Below, in pieces: positions 31,580 to 40,714 of a stretch of 64,000 nucleotides of DNA. Both the position numbers and the translations under genes were made by a program. This stretch comes from Pocillopora damicornis (lineage: Eukaryota), in assembly GCF_003704095.1 (NCBI RefSeq), contig NW_020846526.1:1-64000 (forward strand). Reading direction: 5' to 3'. The notes beneath the pieces are model-generated. The model was not told where the DNA came from, searched no databases, and saw nothing but the letters and a program-made list of their open reading frames with translations. Within the stretch, counting starts at the first letter, position 1. Every line of letters starts with the position of its first letter.

Positions 31580-34500
31580 ATGGCAATTCGCTGGCTTGCT
31601 GTTCTGTGCGCTTGGGCGCTTATAGCGCAATTTACTCTTTCATTGCCCGAGGAAGAATACCCTGAAGAATTTGAACTCGATGAACCCGAGGGTAAGAAGT
31701 AGATTTTTTACCATAAAATGATGCCTTCGAATCTCTTCAAACGATTTGCAAATAAACTGAATGAACGAAGGAACTCTGCACTTGTACACCTATATCAGTC
31801 ACACACTGACTAGAGGGCAATTAATGTTTTGTAACATAAGTACCTCTCTTGCAACTCCATACTGTGCTTCAGAAAAGTTGTTGAGTCAACTGCGTTTGGT
31901 AGGAAGTTGAATAGATGAAACCAACTGGTTCGTGAGATGAAAAATATTGGTTTTTTTTTTCTGGGATATCCCAGAAGATACGCTGGCTTTTACTTTTACG
32001 TTAGTATTTTACTCAGATGATTTACATTAAGAGCCTGAAAATCAAGGAAACTCAACCTTGATCTGATACAAGATCAACTTACCTTCAGGCACTTAAAATT
32101 GAAGGTTTCGAATTATTCAATGACAAAAGGCAAAAAATGTGTTATACTGTTACTCTGTCTTAATCTAACAACTATATTTTTCTATACTTTTCTTCGTGAA
32201 ACAGCTCCAGAAGAAGAAGTCAAGACCAGGCAAAGGAGACAAAGTAAGAAAATTAACCAGCTTTCCTCCTTTCATAGAGCTATCTATCTGACCTATTTAC
32301 CCGAAAGTTAGCCTCTTAAACCTAAGCTACAACACTATGGGTTTCACTAATTGGTATTTTCTCATAAATTTCGCTTTTAACTTTGAACAAAGTGGAATGA
32401 AAGGATCTCTAATCTTACAATTCTCGAATTCATCACGAAATATTGTCCAATTTTGGGCGCATTCAGAGTCATTGCAGCTGAGTACATAGAAACGCGAGGA
32501 TCTTGATCGACAAATAAAATCCCTAAAAGGGTTTATTCTAACTTCGCACACCCTATTTTGCGAAAGTAATCATAGAGTGCATAACTTCCTTAGGTGGTAA
32601 GCTTGTAATGGGTTGGTTTTTTCTCAGAGGGCACGGTAACGAATCCTGCTGTCTGATTGGTTCTTAGTGAGGTCCGGATTTTCTATCGCTATCCGCGGTC
32701 GGGTGCAGGAACGCTCTCGTGAGTTGCCTAGTAGATCCCTAGCTTCGTTGCCATTTTTCATAAATTTATTTCGTTTTAGCGTCTAGGTAATTTTTCCAGC
32801 AAAGCATGTTTTTAGCAAATCAAGCCAATTTTTAATTTATTAGTCCTCTCTTTTCTCTCTCTCTCTCTTTCAAATTACTTTAGTTGCCAGCCAAAAATTG
32901 GTTTCGAAATAAATCTTTTTATAATAAAGTTCGGATATAACGCGCGCTGTCATTGGTTGAAAGAGCGTGCTCTATGAGAGTATAGAGCATAGAGCTGAGC
33001 TAAAGCTGTCACGCCATCTGCCAAATTGTACTATGTTCGACCTTTTCCGGGACTTCTTTTTAGCTTTTTTCCGATAATAGAAGTAAAATTTCGGAACAAG
33101 CGAGCCGGCAAGTAGCAACAGAAGAACCAAACAAAGGTTTGTAAACATACCAGGCGCCGTAATTTACGTTATTAAAACGTGAGCAGATACGAAAATCCTC
33201 AAAGAAAAAACAAAATAGACATTCCGAGTTTTAAAGATATTCAGGCTCAGTTAGATTGCAAGCTTACGTATGGTAATAAAAATCAAACACAGCCAACACT
33301 CTTATTATTTGCTACAATGGCGTGTGCAAATTTGGTCTTTCTTCCACCGAAAAATTTAAGTCAAATGAGACACTTTAACTAGACCCTAGGGGATTGAATG
33401 CGGCTTTTTCTCGTCGAATTCCTTCGGTTTCTGTTGTGAAATTTACTACAAACGAACGGTCAAACTCCCATAACTTAAAAACATAGAATAAAATTTAAGA
33501 GGTATTCTTTGTTGAAAGTGAATAATACTTTCCGTATGATCATTGACTTTTGTTGAAGAAAAAAATTGTCGTTTGTGGAGTTTGTTTGCTAAACCAGTGC
33601 CGTTGTTTTTTTAAAAGTGTACATGCGCTCTTTTTTTCTTACGCGCTCTATAATTGACAGGTGTCAGATCAAGACAGCTACTCGTAAAAAACTGTACACG
33701 TTTTCACCTTTACGCAAATAAAAATGTTCGGTGAACCCTCCCTCTTTAATTTGCATTACCTCTGTTATCGTTATTATTTATTCGCTTGAAAATTACATTC
33801 ATTTTATGGAAGATCTTGCCGTAATTACAGCCCTAAATCATTAAGTTTTAGAAAAAAAAAGTAAAAAGTGTTATTCTCCAGCTTAGATCGGTTCGTATTG
33901 GGAAACACTGTGCCCGAGGTCTTGAGTACTGGTACCGACGGTACTCAAGACCTCGGGCACAGTTGTTCCCAAAACGGACCTCTAGGATGGTGAATAACAT
34001 AATATTACATATATCCCTCCCTTAAATCTCCTGCTGCAGCCTTATTTCACGGTAGTGGACTTATTTTACTCAGTGTTACTCTCCACGGTCACATTTTACA
34101 TTTTGATTTTATAAAATGTGTTTCCTTTTAGTGCTAGCTTTTTTTTTGGGTGTGATTGCACAATTGTCTCGCAAGGACGTAGTTTACTTCTTTCAGAGTC
34201 GACCATTTCGATCTGAAGTTAAACGAGGAGCCCATAAAAACATTCTTAAACGCTTTAACCACTAGAAGTGAGGTGAAGTTCTCCCAAAAGTTTAAAAATT
34301 TTCAGTTCGAGGCCTTTATCTTGATACAACACCAACTTATCGTTATTGATTTACAGGGAAAATTATAAAGGGGAGAGTTACAAACACGTTCCTGGCAATT
34401 AATGGTGGAGGGTTAACGGGATTTGAACCGTTGTATGTTGTATGTTCTATATAATAAACTGCGTCGCCATACTTCTTCTATGTTCCGAATATAAACTACA

Positions 34501-38741: not shown

Positions 38742-40714
38742 TACAACAACGTTCAAGATGGTAGCTGTCATGTTTATCCACTATCTGAAGTCATACGCAT
38801 ACGCCCCACCGGAAGAATGCCTTCCTAATAGTTTAGTCTTCTTCCCTTCCGCTCATTACACCTTCCCATCATCCTCTCCTCCCTTTCTGTCCCACCTCTT
38901 GCTGTCTGCCACCTACTCCGTTATTAACCCATCCTATCTCTTGTATTATTTACTAGGCCAAGAACTTTCGATTAAGGTCAACTTTTTCTCAACCGCACTT
39001 TCCCCTTAAATATGCTATTTATCATAGATGCCCCATTTTGGACACATTGGCAATTACATAATGATTTTTTAAGGCTGTGTATCTTATCTATTCCACCACA
39101 GGGGGTCACTGACGTTGTATAAGATCGAGAATAGAAAGGGTTCAAGAAAGACATCTCTAGCAGCTATTAGTAATCAAGGAAATCAAGGCGTGTGGAAATG
39201 CGAGAAAGTCAGAGTAGAAGTCAGTGTGCATCGACAGGTGAGTCCCACGAGAACCAGTACCAGTTGAATCTTCTATCTCTCTATTGTCAACATTTTGAAC
39301 AACGCTCACACATTATTGGCAGCTCCGTTATTCTGACCCATTTCCCTTTTTACTTGAATACGCTAGCTGATAGGCAGTGAACAGAAACCGCTATTTTATG
39401 CTTGTCTAACTAAGCTTACTGGCCTGTCTACCGTCTTACCCACCCATCTACATACCCTACCCTTTCTTGCGGACGCTATCTAACAAACCACCTTCAGAGC
39501 GCCTCCCTTTACTTACCCACCTACAATTAGCCTTGGAAAGCTCTACTACTTTTTGAAATTTTTTATTTCCTTTCTCCCCCAATTTAGTGTTTACTCAAAA
39601 TGGTCACTAATTGGCTAATTTCTTGCAACATTGTTTGGGGAGTGGACTTTTTCATAATATCGAGATGTTTTATATTACTTATGTTTATTATGTTGATTGA
39701 ATGGGAGGGGAGGGGTGTTAACTTCTTTTGCCAATCATTGAACCTACCTACCTATCCACCAGTCTTCTACCCTCCATATGTACTTACTTACCGACCCACT
39801 AATTTCATTCCTTCCTACAAAACTACACAACTTATCAAGCTTGAAGAGGCCTGCCAGTGAAGTTCATTTTCTCATGTCGAAAATAGTCCGATATTGCCTA
39901 CGTTTTGCTTTACTTCGCTCTGTGCTTGGTACAGAAAACTCGCGACAGCCCACCAACCGATCAGATGCAAAACTAATATCAATAACGACTCGTTTTCATG
40001 CGCTGGCAGTTTTCTTGCTTCTATTTTGGCCATTACGATCACTTTGGTTTTGGTTTTACGAAATTATTACTACAACTGTACTATTAACAATGGTAGTAGG
40101 AACGAGTGGAGTCCAATTTGGTCTGTGATCATGCGAGTGATTCACAAAATCGGACGACTGCGAAGCGGGGGTCCGATTTGTTAATCACGAGTGTGATTAC
40201 AGGCAGAATTGGACGACACGAAGTCCTGTTACCAATTAATCAAAACTATGACAAAATTTGAGAAAGAAACTAGGCATCGGTTGTACATTTTCATAAAAAA
40301 CTTGATCAACAGTTAATCGGCGAAATGTGAGACAACAGCGCGTGCAAATGACGCGTTCTGTCCACTTGAACAGGCGTGACGCTTTAAGTTTCCCTTTAAC
40401 TGTCCATTTGACACTGTCTAATGATATGCATGACGCGTACACTGTCCTATTAGTGCTCAAATCGGGCTGGTGATAACCAATCATGTTCGAGAATTTTGTT
40501 ATGGTTTTGATTAATATTATGAATAAAATATTGTGGTCATACAAAAAACACAATTTACCACGACTTTCATCACTACCTTAGTTACCTAATGATTTAGCGA
40601 GTTCTCACTTATTTTTCTTACCCTTTTTCTATTATTTATCAGCTGTTGTTTGAGGTAAATGCCTCTGGCCAAGTGGTTGCCATTGATGATATCAGTTTCA
40701 CCAATAGCTGCTAG
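31580..40714 (+). CDS. Secreted ShKT-ShKT-polyGly-MAM protein with acidic propeptide (322 aa)
   Basis: Exons: 31580-31691 (signal peptide MAIRWLAVLCAWALIAQFTLS + acidic stretch), 32205-32243 (RQRR), 34807-34914 (ShKT CEDQLNYCSQWPDKYCQDYRDYMKKNCPKKCGYC), 35658-35678, 36146-36355 (ShKT + Gly27), 37301-37444 (CTFDDSMCDW), 38519-38645 (CIRFNYY), 39102-39237, 40643-40714 (VAIDDISFTNSC*). All GT-AG, phases compatible, 969 nt. Confidence 0.87.
33869..33999. repeat. Fold-back (palindromic) MITE-like element
   Basis: Perfect 23-bp arms 33907-33929 and 33941-33963 (ACTGTGCCCGAGGTCTTGAGTAC) with an 11-nt loop; imperfect pairing continues out to TGTTATTC/GAATAACA. Confidence 0.85.
36262..36342 (+). repeat. 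Coding trinucleotide repeat: (GGA)16 plus mixed GGN codons, 27 Gly
   Basis: Counted directly between the TGC at 36259 and the TCG at 36343. Confidence 0.95.
37880..38170. mobile_element. Interspersed repeat with a second partial copy at about 59940-60090
   Basis: Both loci share GATTGGTCAAT...CGCTAAATT...ATAATAAATATCTT(G/A)CTAAC...CTGTAAGT(T/A)ACGGAACC. Confidence 0.7.
40088..40525. mobile_element. Interspersed repeat with a long terminal hairpin
   Basis: CCAATTTGGTCTGTGATCAT...CAAAATCGGAC pairs imperfectly with GTCCGATTTG...GTGATTACAGGCAGAATTGG (about 40113-40211). It lies inside an intron of the ShKT-MAM gene. Confidence 0.6.

What the first reader, a model, noticed from the sequence alone, without database searches (positions are those of the whole stretch)
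31580..40714. Toxin-style precursor fused to an adhesion domain: SP-acidic pro-RQRR-ShKT-ShKT-Gly27-MAM
Nine small exons, almost invisible to the ORF track, join into a clean 322-aa secreted protein. Seen: signal peptide, Glu-rich propeptide (LPEEEYPEEFELDEPEAPEEEVKT), furin site RQRR followed by Gln (possible pyroglutamate), two six-Cys ShKT domains, a 27-Gly tether and one MAM domain, with no catalytic domain. Known: signal + acidic pro + basic site is the usual cnidarian toxin/nematocyst precursor layout, and ShKT with MAM is commonly seen attached to astacin proteases. Inference: a protease-free tethered ShKT effector in which MAM anchors or oligomerises and the ShKT pair reaches a channel or surface target.
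Basis: partly seen in the sequence, partly recalled or inferred. Interest (0 to 1): 0.72.

Follow-up and report, generated by a model that had tools for sequence, protein, structure and literature searches.

The report
Ancient cnidarian protease-free ShK-MAM secreted protein
This coral gene is spliced into a message for a protein with two toxin-like ShK modules and one MAM adhesion module but no enzyme part, a layout shared by corals, anemones, jellyfish and Hydra, and it is likely a secreted binding adaptor for the animal's own extracellular proteins rather than a venom toxin.

Summary
The gene is real. Nine coding exons give 322 aa. RNA contigs show five of eight coding joints directly and two by contig arithmetic, plus 5' and 3' UTR introns. 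No astacin part exists. The same signal-ShK(1-3)-MAM layout occurs in Pocillopora, Acropora, Montipora, Orbicella, Nematostella, Xenia, Dendronephthya, Rhopilema and Hydra. The family's MAM domains form one side of a 100/100 branch that splits Anthozoa from Medusozoa. Ten paper searches found no description of the family (one hit unread). The toxin and tether readings weaken. No second copy was found in the genome. In several anthozoans the ShK pair is better conserved than the MAM. Each ShK has net charge +1 and no conserved Lys-Tyr dyad. The 27-Gly run is a local GGA expansion (0-29 Gly in relatives), and the acidic pro-part is hexacoral-only. A Gln at the predicted mature start is kept in 20 of 22 members. 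Best reading: an ancient secreted, non-catalytic adaptor for self partners (0.5); a venom or nematocyst role is the rival (0.22). No expression or binding data were obtained.

The parts
29201..29364 (+). 5' UTR exon (5' end approximate)
   Evidence: joined to 31567 in 4 of 4 runs, 3 studies; no ATG, in-frame stop
31567..31691 (+). exon 1: 13 nt UTR, ATG at 31580, signal peptide (about 22 aa, judged by hydropathy), start of the acidic propeptide
32205..32243 (+). exon 2: rest of the propeptide, furin-type RQRR, then Gln
   Evidence: joints; RxxR then Gln in 8 of 9 hexacoral-type members
34807..34914 (+). exon 3: ShK domain 1 (phase 1-1 exon)
   Evidence: Pfam PF01549 E 1e-7; RNA
35658..35678 (+). 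exon 4: 21-nt micro-exon, Pro-rich spacer between the ShK domains
   Evidence: inferred inside X1 record 2 and X15 record 7 by length; conserved in relatives
36146..36355 (+). exon 5: ShK domain 2, 27-Gly run (36262-36342; first 16 codons GGA), then a short stretch with a conserved linker Cys; weak donor, 3' end inferred
   Evidence: Pfam E 1.6e-10; linker Cys in relatives
37301..37444 (+). exon 6: MAM domain, part 1
38519..38645 (+). exon 7: MAM part 2, with the family signature P-[FWLM]-[EQ]-L-V-L
39102..39237 (+). exon 8: MAM part 3
40643..40714 (+). exon 9: MAM part 4, final Cys and TAG stop, directly followed by an intron
   Evidence: relatives end at the same Cys
41468..41540 (+). 3' UTR exon (3' end approximate; AATAAA at 41519)
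   Evidence: joint in 3 of 4 runs

Best explanation
The gene is spliced into a message for a signal-pro-ShK-ShK-linker-MAM protein with no enzyme or membrane part, a member of an ancient cnidarian-wide family, and it likely works as a secreted two-ended adaptor that binds the animal's own extracellular partners rather than as a venom toxin. Shown: exon structure, domains, family range and conservation pattern. Inferred steps: (1) the signal peptide sends it out of the cell; (2) in hexacorals a furin-type cut after RQRR exposes Gln, while in octocorals and medusozoans signal cleavage itself exposes Gln, which would cyclise to pyroglutamate and protect the N-terminus; (3) the MAM jelly-roll, with an extra predicted disulfide to the linker in anthozoans, would hold the protein on a surface, mucus or matrix partner; (4) the ShK pair, the best-conserved part in several anthozoans, would bind a slowly evolving self protein on a flexible linker whose length does not matter. 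The partner is unknown. Secreted astacin-type proteases or their substrates are the leading guess, because they use the same two accessory modules.
For: Orthologue-like proteins in nine named genera of Scleractinia, Actiniaria, Octocorallia, Scyphozoa and Hydrozoa. The 25 family MAM rows form one side of a 100/100 branch against 31 other MAM domains, and split into 14 anthozoan-type and 11 medusozoan-type rows. In the own genome only the gene's own 4 exons match the MAM at E<=0.001. Non-Cys identity to the window, ShK1 versus MAM: Dendronephthya 71 vs 38%, P0184 79 vs 49, P0185 75 vs 52, Xenia 54 vs 33, Acropora 64 vs 55. Both ShK domains have net charge +1; no Lys lies six residues before the fourth Cys; the only KY lies before Cys3 and its Lys is kept in 2 of 16 relatives. 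The review passages in PMC5793123 tie Kv block to Lys22-Tyr23 and report an inactive ShKT peptide without a functional dyad. The nearest solved relatives of ShK2 are the ShKT domains of MMP23 and of a nematode metalloprotease, not ShK or BgK. Gln stands at the predicted mature start in 20 of 22 full N-termini (signal sites judged by eye). No transmembrane stretch (highest 19-aa hydropathy 0.99). The model of the Acropora relative matches meprin and neuropilin MAM (Z 16.3, rmsd 2.6 A over 146 residues), with low-confidence linkers.
Against: No cell-type, proteome or binding data were obtained for any member, so the site of action and the partner are guesses. ShK is not better conserved than MAM everywhere: Montipora 43/50 vs 58%, Orbicella 68 vs 69, P0009 39 vs 46, and medusozoans about equal. 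According to a passage in PMC8913943, most ShK genes of Stylophora are expressed in cnidocytes and gland cells. A dyad is neither a sure sign of activity nor the only way to block a channel (one search reports a dyad-bearing inactive peptide). Some relatives have strongly basic ShK domains (+6 to +9). The Nematostella matrisome table names no ShK-MAM protein, which gives no support for a mesoglea role. The own-genome search scores only the best candidates, and Desmophyllum has two neighbouring models, so single copy is not universal. The family was gathered by similarity to the query, which favours a single branch.
Confidence: 0.5

Rival explanations
1. It is a venom or nematocyst component: the pro-part sorts it to the capsule or to gland granules, and the ShK pair acts on prey channels or surfaces while MAM anchors it.
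For: Signal, acidic pro-part and basic site resemble anemone toxin precursors (recalled). Most Stylophora ShK genes are cnidocyte- or gland-expressed (PMC8913943 passage). Nematostella vWFA-ShKT and Fn2-ShKT proteins are filed as putative venoms (PMC12549020 supplement). The family was found only in cnidarian-type sequences.
Against: The pro-part is absent in octocorals, Rhopilema and Hydra. There is no conserved dyad and the charge is near neutral. One copy was found and the tree follows the major lineages. There is no basic site between the ShK pair and the MAM in the window's protein to release the pair. A structural capsule role is not excluded by these points.
Confidence: 0.22
2. It is a neural or neurosecretory ligand, like the ShK-fold neuropeptides of Nematostella, processed by a convertase, capped with pyroglutamate and acting on the animal's own receptors or channels.
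For: Conserved N-terminal Gln (20 of 22), convertase site, strong conservation and one copy. The start of the abstract of bioRxiv 10.1101/2020.05.28.121442 reports recruitment of an ShK-like peptide from the nervous system to venom.
Against: A MAM domain is not part of those peptides (that paper's methods filtered out repeated-ShK proteins). No expression data.
Confidence: 0.13
3. It is a decoy left by loss of the catalytic domain from an astacin-ShK-MAM protease, and it competes with such proteases for substrates.
For: Cnidarian astacins carry ShKT and MAM modules (PMC9848320 and PMC8191133 passages), and they also have a pro-part. The best structural matches are meprin MAM domains.
Against: The family MAMs do not group with the 2 astacin-MAM rows available (a thin sample with no HMP2-type protein). 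Meprin, enteropeptidase, neuropilin and SR-C MAM domains score within about 1.5 Z of each other, so no origin is singled out. No remnant of a catalytic domain was found in 75 family MAM-bearing hits (maximum length 358 aa).
Confidence: 0.1

Closest known systems
Cnidarian ShKT- and MAM-bearing astacins (Hydra HMP1, HMP2, HAS-7; meprin-like)
   Same: Secreted, with signal and pro-part and the same two kinds of accessory module; the MAM fold is closest to meprin.
   Different: No zinc catalytic domain here or in any family member; the ShK domains are N-terminal; the MAM sits on its own branch.
Sea-anemone ShK/BgK type-1 potassium-channel toxins
   Same: Six-Cys ShKT frame (Pfam PF01549); signal, acidic pro-part and basic site in hexacorals.
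   Different: Two domains fused to a MAM; no conserved Lys-Tyr dyad; net charge +1; ShK and BgK were not among the 3 solved hits at E<=10; conserved from corals to Hydra.
Protease-free ShKT fusions already listed in cnidarians (Nematostella vWFA-ShKT and Fn2-ShKT; Stylophora mucin-like two-ShK protein)
   Same: ShKT joined to an adhesion-type module without an enzyme.
   Different: The partner is MAM; none of those tables names an ShK-MAM protein.
[quoted passage not shown]
   Same: Automatic RefSeq names of several members use this label; they share the MAM fold.
   Different: No LDLa domain and one MAM only; about 30% identity to multi-MAM proteins; family profile score gap of 71 vs 130 bits. 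The name is a misnomer.

Membership tests
ShKT domain (PF01549) | six-Cys frame above the Pfam cut-off | tested here: met
   32.8 and 41.8 bits vs cut-off 20.9
MAM domain (PF00629) | profile match and jelly-roll fold with four canonical Cys | tested here: met
   54.6 bits vs 26.4; Z 16.3 to meprin beta MAM for the Acropora relative's model
Astacin/meprin metalloproteases (M12A) | HExxHxxGxxH catalytic domain with Met-turn | tested here: not met
   no motif in the window; RNA joins the pro-part directly to ShK1 and the UTR exon to exon 1; none in 75 family hits
ShK/BgK type-1 Kv toxins | Lys-Tyr functional dyad on the second helix of a basic peptide | tested here: not met
   no Lys at that place in either domain; net charge +1. 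The spacing to the fourth Cys is recalled; Lys22/Tyr23 is
ShK/BgK type-1 Kv toxins | single released domain of about 35 residues | tested here: not met
   two ShK domains plus MAM; no basic site between them in the exon translations
ShK/BgK type-1 Kv toxins | Kv block and presence in venom | not testable with these tools
   needs electrophysiology and venom proteomics
Nematocyst-sorted precursors | acidic pro-part ending in a dibasic site (definition recalled) | tested here: inconclusive
   an acidic pro-part with RxxR is present in 9 of 22 members, all hexacoral-type, and absent in 13; sorting untested
MAM and LDLa domain proteins (MALRD1-like) | multiple MAM and LDLa repeats | tested here: not met
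   one MAM and no LDLa in Pfam scans

The most novel reading that the evidence does not exclude
This is an overlooked gene kept since the last common ancestor of Cnidaria whose ShK pair is an endogenous, pyroglutamate-capped ligand for a conserved self receptor, channel or protease. It would be a living example of the non-venom ancestral state from which ShK toxins were recruited. Its hexacoral form already has the toxin-style precursor, its ShK exons are symmetrical phase-1 cassettes, and retention of the weak intron 5 would yield a secreted ShK-only form without MAM.
Probability: 0.15. Interest if true: 0.75.

Novelty: new variant of a known kind. Interest (0 to 1): 0.47.

Why it matters
ShKT domains are abundant, but their jobs outside venom are mostly unknown. 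This family offers a conserved, apparently low-copy test case with orthologues in two genetic models (Nematostella XP_032241949, Hydra LOC105846713), so expression look-up, knock-down and pull-down can ask directly what a non-toxic ShK pair binds. It is hidden in databases by wrong names and by Pfam, which missed the MAM in 11 of 19 ShK-bearing members scanned. Venom surveys that count every ShK protein as a toxin would likely miscount it.

Tried and rejected
MAM homodimer prediction: no verdict (median score 0.29, mark 0.32); not used for or against. Exact search for the start of exon 6 in metagenome contigs, to see the exon 5-6 joint: 0 hits. phmmer of the single MAM against PDB: 0 hits; the family profile did find MAMs. 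Protein atlas by features: only generic MAM clusters under 0.8. Earlier findings of the scan: nothing in 3 look-ups. Idea that TAG-GTAAG is a premature stop in a longer gene: rejected, because relatives end at the same Cys and the next exon closes within 11-21 codons in all three frames. Idea of an upstream coding exon or astacin: rejected. The 164-aa MAM-only database proteins start inside intron 5 and are read as products of intron-retaining or broken contigs, not as a separate gene. The 257-aa Pocillopora model P0195, which drops most of ShK2, is contradicted by contigs that read through exon 5 to at least 36251. Accession searches in papers: 0 hits for 12 identifiers. Supplement searches of PMC8191133, PMC11269664, PMC11857728 (file cut when stored) and PMC8913943 gave no family member that I could recognise. 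Contig depth was not used to rank expression.
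Full report
Observation. Translating each candidate exon separately gives nine GT-AG-bounded exons with compatible phases and 969 nt in all, 322 codons and a TAG. Exons 3 and 5 match Pfam ShK. Exons 6-9 correspond to a database protein, P0001, that matches Pfam MAM at E 1.5e-14. The Gly run is 27 codons, the first 16 being GGA. 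No astacin zinc motif occurs in the six frames of the window.

Transcript evidence. Of 22 runs listed I laid five, all as contigs. In four runs of four studies the joints exon 1-2 (4 of 4), 2-3 (3 of 4), 6-7 (3 of 4), 7-8 (3 of 4), 8-9 (4 of 4) and exon 9 to a 3' UTR exon at 41468 (3 of 4) are GT-AG skips at the predicted places. A 5' UTR exon ending at 29364 is joined to exon 1 in 4 of 4 runs. It has no ATG and has an in-frame stop, so 31580 is the first start. One contig each in X1 and X15 runs from the UTR exon into exon 5. The unlisted gaps in these records (166 and 18 letters) equal exactly the predicted exons, the 21-nt micro-exon included. The exon 5-6 joint was not seen, because the tool skips the GGA repeat. 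Two Pocillopora database models splice directly after the Gly run; in the complete one (P0198) this leaves five Cys in linker plus MAM. All 12 other anthozoan rows printed have an even number, 11 of them with a linker Cys, and the Montipora and Orbicella linkers align with the window's residues just before 36355.

The family. The MAM part found full-length relatives in Acropora and Montipora clusters, and a search without length limits over 50%-identity representatives found more. Named members are from Pocillopora, Acropora, Montipora, Orbicella, Desmophyllum and Actinostola (partial), Nematostella, Xenia, Dendronephthya, Paramuricea (N-terminal part), Rhopilema and Hydra. The layout is signal, one to three ShK domains, linker, one MAM, end. 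A profile of the family's MAM separates 75 hits at 130 bits or more from 620 other MAM domains at 71 or less. A P-[FWLM]-[EQ]-L-V-L signature is in 73 of 75 versus 2 of 620 (the 75 include near-copies). None is longer than 358 aa or has an astacin motif. In a tree of 56 MAM rows (25 family representatives, 29 top-scoring other MAMs, 2 astacin MAMs), the family is one side of a 100/100 branch. It splits into anthozoan-type (14) and medusozoan-type (11) rows, with scleractinian and octocoral subgroups. The root is for drawing only, and the family was gathered by similarity, so this is consistent with, not proof of, one origin in the cnidarian ancestor. In the own genome only the four MAM exons match; ShK1 finds two weak matches elsewhere. 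Nothing outside Cnidaria was recognised, but many members are unnamed.

What is and is not conserved. The Gly tether is not conserved: linkers hold 0-29 Gly, 9 in the P. verrucosa model's run, and Acropora alleles differ (6, 17, 18). It behaves like a microsatellite tolerated in a flexible linker (pLDDT under 50 there). The acidic pro-part with RxxR occurs in 9 of 22 full N-termini, all hexacoral-type. The ShK domains keep their positional identity and are often better conserved than the MAM (Dendronephthya 71 vs 38% non-Cys identity), though not in Montipora, Orbicella, P0009 or medusozoans. Both window domains have net charge +1 and no Lys at the ShK dyad place. Their nearest solved relatives are the ShKT domains of MMP23 and of a nematode metalloprotease, then aurelin.

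Mechanism. These features fit a secreted, non-catalytic two-ended binding protein under long-term purifying selection better than a toxin in an arms race (inference). MAM would hold it on a surface or matrix partner and the ShK pair would bind a conserved self protein. I give this 0.5, a venom or capsule role 0.22, a neural ligand 0.13 and an astacin-derived decoy 0.10. No expression, proteomic or binding evidence was obtained, so the cell type and partner are open.

Literature. Ten full-text searches found no paper that describes a protease-free ShK-MAM family; the library lacks most subscription papers. One paper, PMC8083181, holds the phrase 'MAM and ShK' once; I saw only the search listing. 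I saw passages of PMC9848320, PMC5793123, PMC8191133, PMC8913943, PMC4877951 and PMC13514124 (no bearing), PMC12549020 and bioRxiv 10.1101/2020.05.28.121442. I ran supplement searches of PMC12549020, PMC8191133, PMC11269664, PMC11857728 and PMC8913943. Whether the Stylophora calicoblast genes XP_022785469 or XP_022806382 belong to this family was not tested. Toxin pro-part motifs and the spacing of the ShK dyad to the fourth Cys are recalled.

Verdict. A real, correctly read gene and an apparently undescribed cnidarian-wide domain arrangement of two known modules. It is a new variant of a known kind (protease-free ShKT fusions with adhesion modules are already listed). Interest 0.47.

Noticed in passing
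window 7729-15348 (-) and about 15292-27506 (+): Two closely similar PKD1-like genes (REJ, PLAT, polycystin channel) lie back to back in opposite orientation, an inverted duplication; a further REJ-type repeat segment and an fn3 exon (16560-16907) lie between them.
   Followed up: partly
window 46749-50000 and beyond (+): Next gene downstream: signal-like first exon, a VWA exon at 47556-48167 (Pfam E 2.7e-34), laminin-G-like exons by eye, and a CUB exon at 62247-62618; it looks like a coral matrix protein.
   Followed up: partly
window 36356-37300: Intron 5 has a weak donor and is covered by contigs in X1, X2, X7 and X15; read-through stops at 36412-36414 and would give an ShK-ShK-Gly protein without MAM. 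Unspliced RNA or DNA in the libraries is not excluded.
   Followed up: partly
window 32205-32210: An alternative acceptor 6 nt into exon 2 in run X7 removes two residues in frame. Montipora database isoforms lack the micro-exon (P0156) or the furin-site exon (P0157).
   Followed up: no
window 40714-41467: An intron starts directly after the stop codon (TAG then GTAAG), so the 3' UTR is a separate exon.
   Followed up: yes
window 32640-33300, 39900-40520, 41655-42010: High-copy repeat fragments in introns and the 3' flank attract many unrelated RNA contigs.
   Followed up: no
P0189 and P0032 (Desmophyllum OS493_014793 and OS493_014791): Two neighbouring gene models both carry family-type MAM sequence: a tandem copy or a split model.
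   Followed up: no
window 61326-62060: Low-complexity tandem repeat region that gives spurious long frames on both strands.
   Followed up: no
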